Below are positions 34,662-50,400 of a stretch of DNA of 54,245 bases, one piece after another; within the stretch, counting starts at the first letter, position 1, and each line of letters starts with the position of its first letter. The stretch lies in IMG/VR virus record IMGVR_UViG_3300002852_000041, positions 1 through 54,245 of that record; one strand, given 5' to 3'. The stretch comes from a virus. Taxonomy: Duplodnaviria > Caudoviricetes. Position numbers and translations under genes: made by a program. The notes under the pieces are model-generated. The model saw nothing but the letters and a program-made list of their open reading frames with translations, had not been told where the DNA came from and ran no database searches.

Positions 34662-35387
34662 TTAGGAACTGCGCCTTGCTGGTGCAAGTGCAACTTCCCC
34701 ATTTGAACCCTTAAAAAACAAGGTTTTCCATGTGTCTTTGAGTTTATAAAAAACAGAGATTTCACCTAAAAGCGCATTCTCTATTATGCTTAACATATTA
34801 TCGTTAACAAGTATTTCCGTGTCCTCAATTACCAGATAAGCCTTATCATAATCACGTGGATTATCTTTATTTTTCCCCTCATATCTCCTGGTAATTTGCG
34901 AAAACATTACACTTTTATAGTCGGCAATGTTATTAAATATTGCCTTATAATTTGGATATGAAACACTTACTATCCCGGCCCTGTCGTTGTCCAATACAAC
35001 AACAATCTTACCTTTCAAGGCATCAGGTATGCAGTCACATTTTAATTTGCAAAGCATGAACATATCCGATGCAACCATGCATCCATCATGATCCATGTAA
35101 ACACCTAAAAATGCTGGTCTATGATTCTCTCTTGTGGTAAAATTTTTGGCAACATCAAAAGTATGTTTAAATACCTCTGATAACTCCACGGTAATGTAGT
35201 CAGAAATTGCATTTTTGATAGCTTCCTCGTATTCTTCCCGCTCTTTTTTGGTTATATCTTCAGGTTTTACTTCCTCCCAATAGTCATAATAATCATGCTC
35301 ATAATGTTCACATTCTTCGCACATGTTGCTGTCAGCGTTTTTACAATAATCACAATCTCCATAATGACTACTCTTTATATTTTTCAC
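34662..35387 (-). CDS. AT-rich cassette gene: Cys cluster + beta-clamp-like domain
   Basis: CDYC..C..C; RPAFLGVY......VASD.F.L, YPNYKAI, LAP.R; GTG start at 35387. Confidence 0.55.
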   Translation of the reverse strand: MKNIKSSHYGDCDYCKNADSNMCEECEHYEHDYYDYWEEVKPEDITKKEREEYEEAIKNAISDYITVELSEVFKHTFDVAKNFTTRENHRPAFLGVYMDHDGCMVASDMFMLCKLKCDCIPDALKGKIVVVLDNDRAGIVSVSYPNYKAIFNNIADYKSVMFSQITRRYEGKNKDNPRDYDKAYLVIEDTEILVNDNMLSIIENALLGEISVFYKLKDTWKTLFFKGSNGEVALAPARRSS

Positions 35388-35419
35388 TCTTTTATTCACC
35401 TCTTTCTTAATGAACAACA

Positions 35420-35530
35420 TTACCATTTCACACTCAACCAGCTAACCGCACACCTCAAACACAGCCACCGATCCCCGACATTCACCCGGGCGGGTTGTCC
35501 GCAGTTATGGCAACTATCATGACCTTCCAT
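35420..35530 (-). CDS. 36-aa zinc-finger peptide
   Basis: Hand translation: MEGHDSCHNCGQPARVNVGDRWLCLRCAVSWLSVKW; GGGGAGG RBS. Confidence 0.55.
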   Translation of the reverse strand: MEGHDSCHNCGQPARVNVGDRWLCLRCAVSWLSVKW

Positions 35531-35902: not shown

Positions 35903-37180
35903 CTAAGCTACTTCCGGGTCGAACTTCTGACCTTCATCCGTCCAGGTATCATCATCCCAAACCATTTGGTCTACCCGGTCAAAGATGCAGGGTTTGAACT
36001 CCAGTAAGTCCTTGGCGTCGAACATATCGAACATCGAAAGTTGGCCCTTGCGTTTGGCTATCTGAATATTGCGGATCTCCTCAGCCATGCCCCGCCTCAT
36101 GTAATACATCCACTGTTTTGGATGAGTTCGCCGTAGCATTGCCATGTGGTTATTGGGGTAAAGCAGGTCGGTACCGCAGCCCATACATCCGTTGCGCTTA
36201 ATCTTGTGGTATGTTCCGCTCCCATCAGTCCATCCCATGTCATACAAGGGTGAATAGGGAACATTGAAGCGTTTTATGTAGGCCCAAATGTCATCATCCG
36301 TCCAAATGGATAACGGGTTACAGTGCCAGAATGGATCTTTCCCAAGATGGTCACGATGGGATTTAAAGAGGTACCCACGGGTAACGAAGTTTGTTTGCCG
36401 CTGTCTGCTTTCGGCTGCCATAAGTCCCTTGAAAATCACATCGACATCCAGCTCGACCTGCAGGCGCTCACTTGGTTCTTTTTTAAGTATGTCGCAGCAG
36501 GCCTGACTGAACTTCACCTGCTTTAAAAGCTCGTAATAAGCAAGTAGCTTTTGATTTTCGCTTTGGCTCTCGGAGAACCGCAAGAAACAGTCAATGTTAA
36601 TCCGATGAGCTTTAAGTTTTGACGCTGCCTTTCCCATCAGCGGCCAGCCATATTGATCAATACACCACCAGTATGACTTGCGGGAGCCTGCCGGCCAGGT
36701 TAATTTTTCATGTTCAAACTTTTCCTTCAGGTGATCAGGGCATGCCGCTTCCAGTGTGGCAGTACTTTTAAGTTTCCCATCTGGCTTTAAAATCTCATGG
36801 ATACGGCCCGTGTCGATCATATATTGCAGTACTCTCTGTTGTGCCACATATTTCAGTCCATCTACTTCCGTGCGGCCTGGTGTGGCTTCATAGAAATTGC
36901 CATTGCCCCAATCCTGCCTGATTTGCCGCGAGAACTGAACGCACTCTGGATATTCCACTCCGGTATTGCCGTATATTACAACCATGCGCTGTGCTTGCTC
37001 TGGGAAGTGGGTCCGTATCAGGTGCCAGAGTACGGTACTGTCTTTGCCTGCACTGAAGGCCAGGGCTGAACGATGGCGGCAAACATCAAAGGCTGACTTA
37101 ATTGCATCTACAGCGGTGGAGATTTTATAGTCCAAGTCACGGGCCTGCTCTTTCATTAGGTCCTTGAAACTAATAAACAT
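35903..37180 (-). CDS. PAPS-reductase family protein
   Basis: AFSAGKDS PP-loop, NTGVEYPE, CCDILKK, PLSIWTDDDIWAY, RNGCMGC. Confidence 0.92.
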   Translation of the reverse strand: MFISFKDLMKEQARDLDYKISTAVDAIKSAFDVCRHRSALAFSAGKDSTVLWHLIRTHFPEQAQRMVVIYGNTGVEYPECVQFSRQIRQDWGNGNFYEATPGRTEVDGLKYVAQQRVLQYMIDTGRIHEILKPDGKLKSTATLEAACPDHLKEKFEHEKLTWPAGSRKSYWWCIDQYGWPLMGKAASKLKAHRINIDCFLRFSESQSENQKLLAYYELLKQVKFSQACCDILKKEPSERLQVELDVDVIFKGLMAAESRQRQTNFVTRGYLFKSHRDHLGKDPFWHCNPLSIWTDDDIWAYIKRFNVPYSPLYDMGWTDGSGTYHKIKRNGCMGCGTDLLYPNNHMAMLRRTHPKQWMYYMRRGMAEEIRNIQIAKRKGQLSMFDMFDAKDLLEFKPCIFDRVDQMVWDDDTWTDEGQKFDPEVA

Positions 37181-37193
37181 CTACTTAACCCCC

Positions 37194-37267
37194 AAACAAA
37201 AACCGGCCACACCATTAATTTGGCGGGCCGGTACTCACCCCGGTAGGTGACGGAGGTCTTTGCCTCC
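37194..37267 (-). ncRNA. Structured cis-RNA motif, copy A (two hairpins + terminator)
   Basis: GGAGGCAAAGACCTCC-G-TCACC(N6)GGTGA-GTA-CCGGCC...GGCCGG-TTTTTGTTT. Confidence 0.7.
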
Positions 37268-37303
37268 TGTTCTTATTCTCTTGGCCTCAGAGGAAATTGG
37301 TTT

Positions 37304-37834
37304 TTAGGTGGCACCGGGAATCCCCCTCGGTATCTGGTCCCATGTTCTCCTGTATAATTCCGGCTTGGTATCCCCTCTCACATACAGGGGATGCCGAGGG
37401 TGGCCATCTTTGGTTAGCTCCAGGCACATAATTTCAGTAGCCCCACTATCTATAAGTAGCCTTATAACCTGCTTATCCCTGCCCTGGTGTTTCCCGTGAG
37501 TCCCCCAGGCTGCAATAATGTAATTGGACCTACGGACAGCAGCCAAAATATATCTGTCATTCTCGGGTCCTACCGGGTCAGGCGCCCGCTTTAATTCCTG
37601 CGGGAAGGTTGTCCGGTACCCAAAAAGGTTAACAACTTCCAAGGAGCCATATCCCCACGCCCGGGCAAACCCTATGCAGCGCCGCAGGGTCGGATCGTCC
37701 TTCTCGGCATCCGCCGTGCTGCCGTTTAGCATTACAAAAAGTACTCGGGGCTTTTCCGAATCCCATTCACGAACCAGAGAGTATCTGTATTGGCAGGTTT
37801 CGTCTATGACTGCCGAGGAAACAATACTACTCAT
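37304..37834 (-). CDS. DUF1643 family protein
   Basis: YRYSL.REW, FVMLN.STADA..DDPTLRRC, VVNLF, AAWG, TKDGHPRHPLY. Confidence 0.9.
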   Translation of the reverse strand: MSSIVSSAVIDETCQYRYSLVREWDSEKPRVLFVMLNGSTADAEKDDPTLRRCIGFARAWGYGSLEVVNLFGYRTTFPQELKRAPDPVGPENDRYILAAVRRSNYIIAAWGTHGKHQGRDKQVIRLLIDSGATEIMCLELTKDGHPRHPLYVRGDTKPELYRRTWDQIPRGIPGAT

Positions 37835-49686: not shown

Positions 49687-49762
49687 AAAAAAGGACACCC
49701 CCTGATTTACTCAGGAAGTGCCCTACTCACCGGGTCACGGGTGACGGAGGTCAAAGCCTCCC
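49687..49762 (-). ncRNA. Structured cis-RNA motif, copy B (two hairpins + terminator)
   Basis: GGAGGCTTTGACCTCC-G-TCACC(N8)GGTGA-GTA-GGGCAC...GTGTCC-TTTTTT. Confidence 0.7.
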
Positions 49763-49805
49763 ATTCGATATTCACTTTTCCCTCGGACGCTTGGGGAACT
49801 GCGGC

Positions 49806-49925
49806 TTAGGTGGCACCGGAATCACCACCGTCCGGTATTTCGGTCCCACAGTAAGGGCAGATCCAGGGGATAGCTCCGGCGCTGTATGAAGTCTTACTGC
49901 AATTCGGGCAGACTCTGCTTTGCAT
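49806..49925 (-). CDS. 39-aa Zn-ribbon peptide
   Basis: Hand translation: MQSRVCPNCSKTSYSAGAIPWICPYCGTEIPDGGDSGAT; AAGGAG RBS. Confidence 0.6.
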   Translation of the reverse strand: MQSRVCPNCSKTSYSAGAIPWICPYCGTEIPDGGDSGAT

Positions 49926-49970
49926 GGGATCAACTCCTTTGGTGTGGAGTGTCTATAAACTATGCAGTAA

Positions 49971-50351
49971 CTATATGGCACGTTTTTTCTTGTTTAAACA
50001 GTCCGTGCATACCTGCCCTATGTTTATCCTGGTACTAAATTGACCGCAAGCGGAACATACCATGCCGGAACTTTTAAACTCGGGAAGGAGTCCAGCAAAG
50101 AGAAGCTCCTTATTGCCAAGTCTCTCCACCCTCCAACCCTTTGCCGTATTGACTTCCATTGCCATTTGATGCTTTACAACAATAAGCCGGTCATTGTTTT
50201 TCTTGCGGATTATGCCCACATAAAGATGGTCTTTCGGGCAATCCTCCCATTTCGGAAGTTGTGACCTACGAGTTATTTCTTTCACCGATATTACGGCGGG
50301 AAGTCCATCCCAGAAACCTTTTATTTTATTTTCAAACTCCTGTATAGGCAT
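49971..50351 (-). CDS. AT-rich hypothetical protein (cassette)
   Basis: AAAGGATG RBS; C-terminal CSAC...CTDC. Confidence 0.6.
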   Translation of the reverse strand: MPIQEFENKIKGFWDGLPAVISVKEITRRSQLPKWEDCPKDHLYVGIIRKKNNDRLIVVKHQMAMEVNTAKGWRVERLGNKELLFAGLLPEFKSSGMVCSACGQFSTRINIGQVCTDCLNKKKRAI

Positions 50352-50400
50352 AAAATAATCATCCTTTCTTAATGAACAACATTACTCATGCTGTGCTCAT

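What the first reader, a model, noticed from the sequence alone, without database searches (positions are those of the whole stretch)
37194..37267. Duplicated two-hairpin RNA motif fused to terminators, copy A (candidate new antitermination/attenuator element)
Seen: GGAGGC-NNN-GACCTCC-G-TCACC-N6-8-GGTGA-GTA occurs here and at 49724-49761. Stems and junctions are identical and only the loops differ (AAA vs TTT; TACCGG vs CGTGACCC). Each is followed immediately by an intrinsic terminator of unrelated sequence, within a co-oriented early operon. That pattern argues for selection on RNA structure and position. Known analogues: HK022 put RNAs (two stems, one-base linker), lambda nut sites, riboswitch platforms. 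I do not recognise it as a known family. Inference: a protein-, RNAP- or ligand-responsive switch controlling readthrough into the PAPS-reductase and primase genes.
Basis: partly seen in the sequence, partly recalled or inferred. Interest (0 to 1): 0.8.

Follow-up and report, generated by a model that had tools for sequence, protein, structure and literature searches.

The report
Prophage terminator switch with tiny gene
Two copies of a small folded RNA sit in front of transcription stop signals in a prophage, each preceded by a conserved 13-14-codon proline-rich mini-gene, and together they look like a previously undescribed on/off gate for the phage's DNA-replication genes.

Summary
Each copy (A 37194-37314, B 49687-49816) is a module: a Shine-Dalgarno site plus a conserved micro-ORF (MPPKNQFPLRPRE / MPPKPQFPKRPREK), hairpin H1, one G, hairpin H2, GUA, then an intrinsic terminator.

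I found 11 distinct instances in 9 genomes of one Bacillota class (Desulfotomaculaceae/Pelotomaculum-type MAGs). One is a third copy elsewhere in this genome. All are co-oriented with phage-type genes.

The terminators are not independent of the motif. The H2 loop is complementary to the first 4-7 nt of the terminator's 5' arm in all 11, in six different sequence versions with compensatory changes. That gives an H-type pseudoknot, or antiterminator, that competes with the terminator.

The micro-ORF is under purifying selection (pN/pS 0.19, synonymous sites near saturation) and occurs in 9 of 11 loci. The first downstream gene is a replication gene in 7 of 10 complete loci.

Rfam, the phage records and four paper searches gave no match.

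Best reading: a new cis-acting transcription attenuator that gates the replication module, with the micro-ORF as its likely input. put/nut-like processive antitermination is not supported. The regulatory input is inferred, not shown. The scan had not noted this motif on other DNA.

The parts
37273..37314 (-). Copy A micro-ORF: GTG start, MPPKNQFPLRPRE, TAA stop. The start overlaps the last codons of the DUF1643 gene (stop 37304-37306). A purine-rich Shine-Dalgarno-like run (GAGGGGGA) lies just upstream.
   Evidence: Homologous micro-ORFs occur in 9 of 11 loci, with pN/pS 0.19.
37252..37272 (-). Copy A: conserved GAACA lead-in (37268-37272) and hairpin H1, GGAGGC-AAA-GACCUCC (37252-37267). H1 has 5-6 bp and a bulged A.
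   Evidence: H1 pairs show 3 compensatory changes across 11 sequences.
37232..37251 (-). Copy A: linker G (37251), hairpin H2 = pseudoknot stem S1, UCACC / GGUGA (37246-37250 / 37235-37239), loop UACCGG (37240-37245), invariant linker GUA (37232-37234).
37194..37231 (-). Copy A intrinsic terminator: stem-loop 37203-37231 (-19.4 kcal/mol) and U-tract UUUUUGUUU (37194-37202). Its first four bases, CCGG (37228-37231), pair with the loop CCGG (37240-37243) as pseudoknot stem S2. The PAPS-reductase gene starts at 37180.
49772..49816 (-). Copy B micro-ORF: GTG start, MPPKPQFPKRPREK, TGA stop. The start overlaps the stop of a 39-aa Cys-x2-Cys ORF (49805-49924). Shine-Dalgarno-like GGUGGUGAU lies upstream.
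49746..49771 (-). Copy B: spacer and GAAUG lead-in (49762-49771), and hairpin H1 GGAGGC-UUU-GACCUCC (49746-49761).
49724..49745 (-). Copy B: linker G (49745), H2/S1 UCACC (49740-49744) / GGUGA (49727-49731), loop CGUGACCC (49732-49739), linker GUA (49724-49726).
49687..49723 (-). Copy B intrinsic terminator: stem-loop 49693-49723 (-21.1 kcal/mol, containing G-U pairs) and U6 (49687-49692). Its first six bases, GGGCAC (49718-49723), pair with the loop GUG(A)CCC (49732-49738) as stem S2.
49970..49998 (-). Promoter-like site (TTTAAA-17-TATAGT) about 230 nt upstream of copy B's H1. It may make copy B part of a 5' leader.
   Evidence: This is a consensus match only.

Best explanation
Each copy is a cis-acting transcription attenuator built as one module: a translated micro-ORF, hairpin H1, a single G, hairpin H2, GUA, and an intrinsic terminator.

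The H2 loop pairs with the base of the terminator's 5' arm. That makes an H-type pseudoknot: S1 = UCACC/GGUGA, L1 = 1-2 nt, S2 = 4-7 bp, L3 = GUA. While the pseudoknot holds, the bottom of the terminator stem cannot form and RNA polymerase reads through into the downstream genes, mostly phage replication genes. When it is lost, the much stronger terminator hairpin forms and transcription stops.

The decision is most likely set by the conserved proline-rich micro-ORF just upstream. My preferred version is this. A ribosome slowed or arrested on the nascent KPQF-x-K-R-P peptide comes to rest abutting or invading H1. That sets whether H1 and the pseudoknot persist while the polymerase crosses the terminator. 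In the variants whose ORF runs through the element, the ribosome itself occupies it.

Shown: the structure, the loop-arm covariation, the terminator in every complete copy, selection on the peptide, and the linkage to replication genes. Inferred: that pseudoknot formation causes readthrough, that the terminators work in this host, and the nature and sign of the translational input.

Rough odds: about 0.7 for a conditional terminator with a pseudoknot antiterminator, and about 0.35 for ribosome or nascent-peptide input specifically.
For: (1) Family. There are 11 distinct instances. They came from an exact-pattern scan and covariance-model searches. True hits score 39.6 bits or more and the best noise hit scores 23.9.

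(2) Fixed architecture. All 11 have a 1-nt H1-H2 linker and a 3-nt H2-terminator linker. All 10 complete copies have a hairpin plus U-tract, from -5.5 to -24 kcal/mol.

(3) Loop-arm pairing. There are six sequence versions: CCGG/CCGG, CCCG/CGGG, CUGG/CCAG, GUGaCCC/GGGCAC, GUGaGCC/GGCCAC and GUGACG/CGUCAC. Using one representative of each version, the cognate loop-arm assignment is the best of 720 permutations. The helix is 100% paired with 2 compensatory changes in the 8-sequence subfamily, with 7 of 500 shuffles reaching the observed value. It is also 100% paired with 2 compensatory changes in the 3-sequence subfamily, but there 91 of 500 shuffles reach it, so that set alone is weak.

(4) L1 is 2 nt when S2 is 4 bp and 1 nt when S2 is 6-7 bp. 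As I recall the rules, this fits pseudoknot geometry.

(5) Strand. G-U pairs in the terminator stems, the U-tracts, and co-orientation with the flanking genes in all loci point to sense-strand RNA.

(6) Micro-ORF. It is present in 9 of 11 loci with a Shine-Dalgarno-like run. Pooled pS is 0.735 and pN 0.143, ratio 0.19. A peptide-coding pattern run over all 162 genomes of the class gave 6 matches against 1 for the reversed control. All 6 lie just upstream of the element or of a degenerate copy.

(7) Spacing. In six loci the micro-ORF starts 42-51 nt before the conserved GAAYR lead-in that sits 5 nt ahead of H1. Stops lie 5 or 10 nt before H1 in four loci.

(8) No phage protein family other than generic XRE repressors is shared among the loci. 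This favours an autonomous module or a host-machinery input.

(9) Context. The first downstream gene is a replication initiator or helicase loader (L004, L005, L026), a primase (L007) or phrog_997 (L003, with homologues in L014 and L038).

(10) Principle. Slow translation of proline runs uncouples ribosome and polymerase and allows intrinsic termination in E. coli (abstract of PMC5021804).
Against: There is no expression or termination data; no RNA run was listed.

H2 itself shows no covariation. It is invariant, and the only two changes break terminal pairs.

S2 is only 4 bp in 8 of 11 copies, against terminator stems of -16 to -24 kcal/mol. The pseudoknot alone may not hold without a stabilising factor.

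Against ribosome input specifically:
- In L007 the micro-ORF ends 230 nt before H1, with another ORF in between.
- L004 has an unrelated small ORF and L015 has none.
- The stop position is not conserved. It lies before H1 in 5 loci and the ORF runs through the element in 4, in two different frames.
- Bacillota are reported to uncouple transcription from translation. I recall this and did not check it here.
- The near-invariant sequence of the H1 and H2 stems, next to saturated synonymous sites in the adjacent ORF, is not explained by a pure ribosome-position model.

All instances come from one bacterial class, and many derive from the search pattern or from models built on it, so the measured conservation is partly circular.
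Confidence: 0.55

Rival explanations
1. The 13-14-residue basic, proline-rich peptide is itself the effector. Once made, possibly acting first on the RNA next to it, it binds the sequence-conserved H1-H2 core and stabilises the pseudoknot. This would be a minimal, self-encoded counterpart of lambda N with its nut site. Terminated short transcripts still encode the peptide, so readthrough into the replication genes would switch on with a delay.
For: Residues 2-13 are conserved at the amino-acid level whatever follows them. An intact canonical micro-ORF is kept in L007, 230 nt away from H1. The H1/H2 stems are almost invariant in sequence although neighbouring synonymous sites are near saturation, which suggests sequence-specific recognition by a conserved partner. 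No shared phage protein could play that role. The two loci with diverged H1 (L026, L038) also have the most diverged peptides.
Against: I know of no specific RNA-binding antiterminator this small. The peptide carries only 4-5 basic residues. In four loci it carries long, unrelated C-terminal extensions. L004 and L015 have the RNA but not the peptide. The co-divergence of peptide and H1 may simply reflect phylogenetic distance.
Confidence: 0.15
2. The pseudoknot is stabilised or disrupted by a host factor or a small molecule, in the manner of a riboswitch or a protein-dependent antiterminator. The micro-ORF then has an unrelated or only auxiliary role.
For: The core is compact, about 45 nt, with invariant unpaired bases: the bulged A, the linker G and GUA. 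It has an H-type pseudoknot that overlaps a terminator, as in several small ON-type riboswitches (recalled). L004, L007 and L015 would have to work without an adjacent KPQF micro-ORF. The loci share no phage protein.
Against: No Rfam family matches, even at E<=10. L1 and S2, which would line a binding pocket, vary freely. The tight genomic linkage of the micro-ORF would remain unexplained.
Confidence: 0.13
3. This is a constitutive, partly leaky terminator cassette. The hairpins and the pseudoknot only tune terminator efficiency or transcript stability, nothing is regulated, and the cassette spreads among phages as a module boundary.
For: The module occurs between otherwise unrelated genes in otherwise unrelated phages. 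The duplicated segment in A and B starts inside the 3' end of two different upstream ORFs. A 4-bp S2 may only weaken termination slightly.
Against: Sequence conservation of H1/H2 and purifying selection on the micro-ORF are more than a passive terminator needs. Placement in front of replication genes is consistent.
Confidence: 0.1
4. This is put-, EAR- or canT-like processive antitermination: the folded RNA modifies the transcribing polymerase so that it ignores downstream terminators.
Against: The RNA covaries with, and is fixed 3 nt from, its own terminator. A processive element does not need that. The core is about 38 nt, against roughly 70 nt for put (recalled) and 452 nt for the active canT fragment. 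Rfam gave no match.
Confidence: 0.03
5. This is antisense-RNA-driven attenuation of the pT181 or IncI1/IncB type. A countertranscript binds the variable loops and blocks the loop-arm pairing, which would explain conserved stems with specificity-defining loops upstream of replication genes.
For: The logic resembles plasmid replication control. In IncI1/IncB plasmids a leader peptide and a pseudoknot control repZ, and an antisense RNA blocks them (passages in PMC8053102). Here the loops vary while the stems do not.
Against: No antisense promoter-like site lies near A or B. Only 3 of 11 loci have a weak one, each at a different position. Loop 2 is constrained by its cis partner.
Confidence: 0.03
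6. This is a DNA-level site, such as a single-strand initiation or recombination site near the replication genes, rather than an RNA.
For: It lies next to replication genes, and the stems are conserved in sequence.
Against: G-U pairs would be C-A mismatches on the other strand. The U-tract is present on one strand only. Orientation always follows the genes. Loop lengths vary from 6 to 8 nt.
Confidence: 0.01

Closest known systems
Leader-peptide transcription attenuators (trp/his/pheL type; pyrBI type, where the leader ORF runs through the terminator; ribosome-stalling leaders of resistance genes in Bacillota). Features recalled, except the EF-P/polyproline principle from the abstract of PMC5021804.
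   Same: A short translated ORF lies immediately upstream of an intrinsic terminator. There are mutually exclusive RNA pairings involving the terminator's 5' arm. In four loci the ORF runs into or through the terminator.
   Different: The competitor of the terminator is a hairpin loop (a pseudoknot), not a linear 2:3 hairpin. The whole peptide is conserved, not a run of regulatory codons. The stop position is variable. The element controls phage replication genes, not biosynthetic or resistance genes.
IncI1 (ColIb-P9) / IncB repY-repZ control: leader peptide plus pseudoknot upstream of a replication gene (passages in PMC8053102)
   Same: A leader peptide combines with base pairing between a hairpin loop and a distal downstream sequence to gate a replication initiator.
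   Different: There the pseudoknot activates translation initiation and is opposed by an antisense RNA. Here the loop's partner is a terminator arm, so the control is transcriptional, and no antisense promoter was found.
Lambda N/nut with tR1, and HK022 put (processive antitermination)
   Same: The genomic role looks alike: a terminator between the immediate-early regulators and the replication genes of a temperate phage. Repeated related RNA sites occur in one operon.
   Different: I saw no boxA/boxB-like feature, though I ran no dedicated scan for one. The loops, which are essential in boxB, vary freely here. The RNA is tied to one adjacent terminator by base pairing. No N-like protein was found.
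RNA targets of terminator-specific antiterminator proteins (ANTAR dual-hexaloop motif; RAT of BglG/SacY). Features recalled.
   Same: Two small tandem hairpins lie directly upstream of, and compete with, a terminator.
   Different: The ANTAR loops have conserved A1/G4 positions and the second hairpin itself overlaps the terminator. Here the loops are variable and only loop 2 pairs with the terminator. No ANTAR or PRD protein was noticed nearby.
Small H-type pseudoknot riboswitches (preQ1-I, fluoride, guanidine-III). Features recalled.
   Same: The size (about 45 nt) and an H-type pseudoknot overlapping an expression platform.
   Different: There is no Rfam match. The would-be pocket elements (L1, S2) are not conserved. 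A conserved micro-ORF is attached.

Membership tests
Any Rfam 15 family | Covariance-model score at or above the family's gathering threshold | tested here: not met
   There were 0 matches over the whole window at gathering thresholds. In E-value mode, copy A gave 0 matches and copy B gave 4 matches at E 5-8 to unrelated miRNA, snoRNA and sRNA models.
HK022 put RNA | About 70-nt two-stem RNA that acts processively on distant, heterologous terminators | not testable with these tools
   Activity cannot be tested here. Structurally, the core is about 38 nt and is locked by covariation to its own terminator 3 nt away. I did not verify whether Rfam holds a put model.
Lambda-type nut site | boxA plus a boxB hairpin whose loop sequence is conserved and bound by N | tested here: not met
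   The loops of both hairpins vary in sequence and length among the 11 members. No N-like family is shared among the loci. boxA was not searched for explicitly.
ANTAR target RNA | Two hexaloops with conserved A at position 1 and G at position 4, the second hairpin overlapping the terminator (recalled definition) | tested here: not met
   The H1 loop reads C-NNN-G-A with 2-4 variable bases. The H2 loop is 6-8 nt and variable. H2 does not overlap the terminator stem.
Leader-peptide transcription attenuator (as a kind, not a sequence family) | Translated short ORF upstream of the terminator | tested here: met
   A Shine-Dalgarno-like run, a start codon and a conserved ORF occur in 9 of 11 loci, with pN/pS 0.19. 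Translation itself is not shown.
Leader-peptide transcription attenuator (as a kind, not a sequence family) | Alternative RNA pairing that excludes the terminator | tested here: met
   Loop-2 to terminator-arm pairing is present in 11 of 11 members, with compensatory changes.
Leader-peptide transcription attenuator (as a kind, not a sequence family) | Ribosome position on the leader decides which pairing forms | tested here: inconclusive
   The stop lies 5-10 nt before H1 in 4 loci and the ORF runs through the element in 4. But it lies 230 nt away in L007, and the KPQF ORF is absent in L004 and L015.
Intrinsic (factor-independent) terminator | G+C-rich hairpin directly followed by a U-tract on the transcribed strand | tested here: met
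   This holds in 10 of 10 complete members. Copy B was also called by the consensus scan. Copy A was not called by that scan because of a bulge, but it folds at -19.4 kcal/mol and is followed by UUUUUGUUU.
Antisense-controlled attenuation (pT181 / IncI1-IncB type) | Countertranscript promoter on the opposite strand within the leader | tested here: not met
   There is none near A or B. Weak matches occur in 3 of 11 loci, at inconsistent positions.

The most novel reading that the evidence does not exclude
The micro-ORF and the RNA form a self-contained two-part antitermination system. A genetically encoded 13-14-residue proline/arginine-lysine peptide recognises the sequence-invariant H1-H2 core and locks a pseudoknot that disarms the adjacent terminator. 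This would be the smallest known peptide-RNA antiterminator pair, acting as a delay timer for phage replication genes.
Probability: 0.15. Interest if true: 0.9.

Novelty: new variant of a known kind. Interest (0 to 1): 0.66.

Why it matters
If correct, this is an undescribed way for temperate phages of anaerobic Bacillota to gate their replication module. A hairpin loop reaches forward to disarm the next terminator, and a conserved tiny gene is attached as sensor or effector.

Three things make it useful:
- It adds a compact, portable regulatory part of about 120 nt.
- It supplies a conserved candidate arrest or RNA-binding peptide from a phage.
- It gives a concrete case for asking how early and replication gene tiers are separated in phages that lack N- or Q-like proteins.

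The family is narrow: 11 instances in 9 genomes of one class. Its immediate reach is therefore limited.

Tried and rejected
Searches that found nothing:
- Phage GenBank records by blastn 'distant' with copy A: no match.
- Rfam at gathering and E-value thresholds: nothing meaningful.
- Sequencing runs: no RNA holder listed.
- Pfam on three long versions of the micro-ORF product: nothing at E<=1.
- PHROGs or Pfam on the small ORFs around copy B and the 94-aa ORF after it: mostly nothing.
- Paper searches: four searches on leader peptide, attenuation, pseudoknot, prophage, antitermination and arrest peptide found no description of this element. A fifth search served only to document the IncI1/IncB analogy. 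Supplementary files were not consulted.
- Earlier notes of the scan, by sequence and by words: no prior note of this motif on other DNA.

Public-collection scans:
- Metagenome scan: 3 stretches. One repeats L007's sequence (L011). Two are chance hits in GC-rich coding DNA (L010, L012).
- Genome scan: 5 stretches, of which L006 (Chloroflexi) is a chance hit.
- Peptide-coding scans of viral contigs: only L003 and L009. In L009 the PPKPQFPK stretch lies in the N-terminal region of a longer ORF without the RNA, so I dropped it from the family.

Rows dropped as noise:
- Covariance-model hits at or below 25 bits were inspected where shown and look like chance matches inside coding DNA. The ones I viewed are L016-L018, L031-L037, L053-L055 and L062.
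- L019-L023, L025 and L056-L061 were not inspected. I dropped them on score alone.

Ideas considered and rejected:
- A protein encoded through the hairpins: the reading frame differs between loci and the loop lengths change by 1-2 nt.
- Programmed frameshifting: no consistent slippery site.
- IS200/IS605-type or omega-RNA ends: no transposase, and only 3 copies in the genome.
- CsrA sites and tRNA mimicry: no consistent features.

I could not put all 11 sequences into one pseudoknot column scheme because the two subfamilies differ in loop length. Counts were therefore made per subfamily and with my own duplex-energy permutation test.
Full report
**1. The observation**

Reading the two places shows the motif on the minus strand. 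Copy A reads GGAGGC-AAA-GACCUCC-G-UCACC-UACCGG-GGUGA-GUA at 37267->37232. Copy B reads GGAGGC-UUU-GACCUCC-G-UCACC-CGUGACCC-GGUGA-GUA at 49761->49724. The 22-nt core matches twice when up to 3 mismatches are allowed, against none in 100 dinucleotide-preserving shuffles. Both copies fold into two hairpins followed, 3 nt later, by a strong hairpin and a U-tract. The consensus scan calls the copy B terminator. It misses copy A's because of a bulge.

**2. The element is larger than described**

Aligning the two regions shows similarity from about 80 nt upstream of the motif to the GUA. That upstream part holds a small ORF with a Shine-Dalgarno-like run:
- Copy A: GTG at 37314, encoding MPPKNQFPLRPRE, then a stop.
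- Copy B: GTG at 49816, encoding MPPKPQFPKRPREK, then a stop.

In both copies the GTG overlaps the last codons of the preceding ORF. That ORF is a DUF1643 gene in A and a 39-aa Cys-x2-Cys ORF in B. The last ~40 nt of these two unrelated ORFs are themselves similar. The duplicated segment therefore begins inside them.

**3. Relatives**

An exact scan for GACCTCCGTCACC-N4-12-GGTGAGTA gave the following.
- Viral contigs: 1 stretch, L003.
- One-genome-per-species collection: 5 stretches. Four are real: L004, L005, L007 and L008. L008 is the same contig as L003. The fifth, L006, is a chance hit.
- Metagenome contigs: 3 stretches. One duplicates L007 and two are chance hits.

The record titles name Desulfotomaculaceae, Pelotomaculum, Bacillota and Eubacteriales MAGs.

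I built a covariance model (R1) from six sequences and searched three sets of genomes:
- the window's family, 21 genomes;
- its order, 151 genomes;
- its class, 151 of 162 genomes.

These added L014, L015, L030 and L038. They also found a third copy in the window's own genome on another contig (L026 = G000:C15:133812-133858). A second model built from all 11 sequences (R2) found the same ten loci at 39.6 bits or more. The next hit scored 23.9 bits. The low-scoring hits I inspected lie in coding DNA.

In total there are 11 distinct instances in 9 genomes. L005's genome, G160, was reached by pattern searches. The family was not found outside this class, but only exact-pattern scans reached beyond it.

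**4. Anatomy shared by all members**

Searches give these shared features:
- A GAAYR lead-in.
- H1, usually GGAGGC-N2-4-GACCUCC with a bulged A.
- One G.
- H2, UCACC-N6-8-GGUGA.
- GUA (GUG once).
- A terminator with a U-tract in 10 of 10 complete copies, from -5.5 to -24 kcal/mol. L030 is cut by a contig end.

H1 shows three compensatory changes, for example GGAGA/UCUCC in L014. It is rebuilt in L026 and extended in L038. H2 never covaries. It is invariant apart from two changes that break terminal pairs.

**5. The key finding: the terminators are coupled to loop 2**

In every member the 3' part of the H2 loop is complementary to the first 4-7 nt of the terminator's 5' arm.

| Loop 2 / terminator arm | Members |
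|---|---|
| CCGG / CCGG | A, L004, L005, L015, L026, L030 |
| CCCG / CGGG | L014 |
| CUGG / CCAG | L038 |
| GUG(A)CCC / GGGCAC | B |
| GUG(A)GCC / GGCCAC | L007 |
| GUGACG / CGUCAC | L003 |

- Using one representative of each version, the true loop-arm assignment has the best summed duplex energy of all 720 permutations.
- In the 8-sequence subfamily the four pairs are 100% paired with two compensatory changes. Seven of 500 shuffles reach the observed value. Sliding the partner drops pairing to 25-52% for the whole scored structure, H2 pairs included.
- In the 3-sequence subfamily six pairs are 100% paired with two compensatory changes. Here 91 of 500 shuffles reach the observed value, so this set alone is weak.

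Together with H2 this forms an H-type pseudoknot: S1 = UCACC/GGUGA, S2 = loop/arm, L3 = GUA. L1 is 2 nt when S2 has 4 bp and 1 nt when S2 has 6-7 bp. As I recall the loop-length rules for pseudoknots, that is what geometry demands. A 3-nt L3 over a 5-bp S1 is near the limit.

The same bases cannot sit in both S2 and the terminator stem. The pairing is therefore an antiterminator by construction. Whether it wins is not shown. The local alternative hairpin is worth -6 to -10 kcal/mol against -16 to -24 for most terminators.

**6. RNA, and which strand**

The terminator stems of B, L003 and L007 contain G-U pairs. U-tracts follow the stems on one strand only. In every locus the element points the same way as the flanking genes. 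I found no antisense promoter-like site near A or B. My own scan found weak ones in only 3 of 11 loci, at different positions.

**7. The micro-ORF**

A KPQF-type micro-ORF occurs in 9 of 11 loci:

| Locus | Peptide |
|---|---|
| A | MPPKNQFPLRPRE |
| B | MPPKPQFPKRPREK |
| L003 | MPPKPQFPKKPRGK |
| L014 | (ATA at the start position) PPKPQFPKRPRGK |
| L007 | MPPKPQFPRRPRGK |
| L005, L030 | MPPKPQFPKRPKDKK... |
| L038 | MPGKPKPQFAKRRSKDK... |
| L026 | ...PDKPQFSKRPRPE... |

- Over codons 2-13 of seven loci, pooled pS is 0.735 and pN is 0.143, a ratio of 0.19. The 21 pairs are not independent. The peptide is therefore selected as a peptide.
- Synonymous sites are close to saturated, yet the adjacent H1/H2 stems are nearly identical. 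The stems are constrained in sequence, not merely young.
- An independent test used a degenerate peptide-coding pattern over all 162 genomes of the class. It gave 6 matches against 1 for the reversed control. Five lie just upstream of a canonical element. One (L049) lies upstream of a degenerate hairpin-terminator.

Stop positions vary:
- 5 nt before H1 in A and L003.
- 10 nt before H1 in B and L014.
- 230 nt before H1 in L007, where a 46-aa Cys-rich ORF intervenes.
- In L005, L030, L038 and L026 the ORF runs through the hairpins, in two different frames. It stops inside or beyond the terminator in L005, L038 and L026. L030 is cut off.
- L004 carries an unrelated small ORF and L015 carries none by my criteria.

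**8. Context**

The window's copies lie in the long minus-strand operon that starts at a Cro-like gene opposite a cI-like gene. Copy B is about 2.4 kb downstream of that start. Copy A lies between DUF1643 and a PAPS-reductase-family gene.

The first gene after the element elsewhere:

| Locus | First downstream gene |
|---|---|
| L004, L005, L026 | replication initiator or DnaD-like helicase loader (L005 is followed by a DnaB-like helicase) |
| L007 | DNA primase |
| L003 | phrog_997, annotated 'replication terminator' |
| L014, L038 | BLAST homologues of the L003 gene |

That makes 7 of 10 complete loci.

Clustering all ORFs of ten loci found only XRE-type repressors shared widely. I therefore see no phage-encoded protein that could be the common partner of the RNA.

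L004 has a good promoter-like site (TTGACG-17-TAGAAT) 129 nt upstream. Copy B has a weaker one 232 nt upstream.

**9. Mechanism**

What is shown:
- a conserved module;
- a covarying loop-terminator pairing;
- a terminator in every complete copy;
- a selected micro-ORF;
- linkage to replication genes.

From this I infer a conditional terminator. The pseudoknot means readthrough and the terminator hairpin means stop.

For the input I favour translation of the micro-ORF. The evidence for this:
- In six loci the micro-ORF starts 42-51 nt before the GAAYR lead-in, about 47-56 nt before H1. A ribosome held near codons 10-14 would then abut or open H1.
- The peptide is proline-rich.
- Slow translation of proline runs is known to uncouple ribosome and polymerase and permit intrinsic termination in E. 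coli (abstract of PMC5021804).
- Conserved arrest peptides controlling attenuators exist in Bacillota. I recall this and did not check it here.

The evidence against this input:
- L007's separated micro-ORF, and the two loci without one.
- The unconstrained stop position.
- The reported uncoupling of transcription and translation in Bacillus (recalled).
- The unexplained sequence invariance of the stems.

These same points favour the bolder rival, in which the peptide itself binds the conserved H1-H2 core. I cannot decide between them with sequence alone.

**10. Comparison with known systems**

- Processive RNA antiterminators (put, EAR, conAn2, canT) act on distant and heterologous terminators and are larger. 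The active canT fragment is 452 nt (passages in PMC11658703). Here the RNA is tied to one terminator by base pairing.
- The closest logic is a classical leader-peptide attenuator.
- Among replication controls, the closest is the IncI1/IncB system. There a leader peptide and a loop-to-distal-sequence pseudoknot gate repZ translation (passages in PMC8053102). That system is translational and antisense-controlled.
- Rfam 15 has no matching family. Four paper searches found no description.

I file it as a new variant of a known kind: a transcription attenuator.

**11. Verdict**

The finding is of real interest, but it is narrow in distribution and untested experimentally.

Noticed in passing
window 35402-35423 and 50364-50385: An identical 22-bp sequence lies just upstream (on the minus strand) of two unrelated genes 15 kb apart, 34662-35387 and 49971-50351. 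The second gene sits just upstream of copy B's module.
   Followed up: partly
G000:C15:123800-143799 (locus L041), element at about 10013-10059 of L041: A third, diverged copy of the module lies in a second prophage-like region of the same genome. It is followed by a replication-initiator/DnaD-like gene with an HNH part, and then by a 658-aa ORF that looks by eye like a cytosine methyltransferase.
   Followed up: partly
L009:10880-10960 (-), an IMG/VR contig: The same nine residues, (M/V)PPKPQFPK, occur at or near the N-terminus of a longer ORF. A hydrophobic segment and a lysozyme-like sequence follow (judged by eye). No RNA element is present. This may be coincidence in a Pro/Lys-rich region or reuse of the peptide.
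   Followed up: no
L049:1380-1700 (+) = G160:C223: This is a degenerate relative. A PPKPQFPKRQKEK... coding stretch and the GAACAGGAGAC lead-in are followed by a different long hairpin and a terminator, without H2 or the pseudoknot.
   Followed up: no
window 37304-37345 and 49805-49852 (-): The 3' ends of two unrelated ORFs, DUF1643 (176 aa) and a 39-aa Cys-x2-Cys ORF, share about 40 nt and both end ...GAT-stop. The DUF1643 Pfam match ends at residue 150 of 176. The duplicated module therefore seems to supply the C-terminal tails of its upstream neighbours.
   Followed up: partly
window 37252-37267 (+): On the plus strand the complement of H1 is followed by a T-rich tail, and the consensus scan calls it terminator-like. 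Several relatives also have a T-rich run there, because the sense strand is A-rich upstream of H1. The element might also stop antisense transcription.
   Followed up: no
L007:4760-5040 (-): In this locus the micro-ORF overlaps the 3' end of a 79-aa ORF that looks Spo0E-like by eye. It is separated from the RNA element by a 46-aa Cys-rich ORF and a 9-codon ORF whose start overlaps that ORF's stop (GTGA).
   Followed up: no
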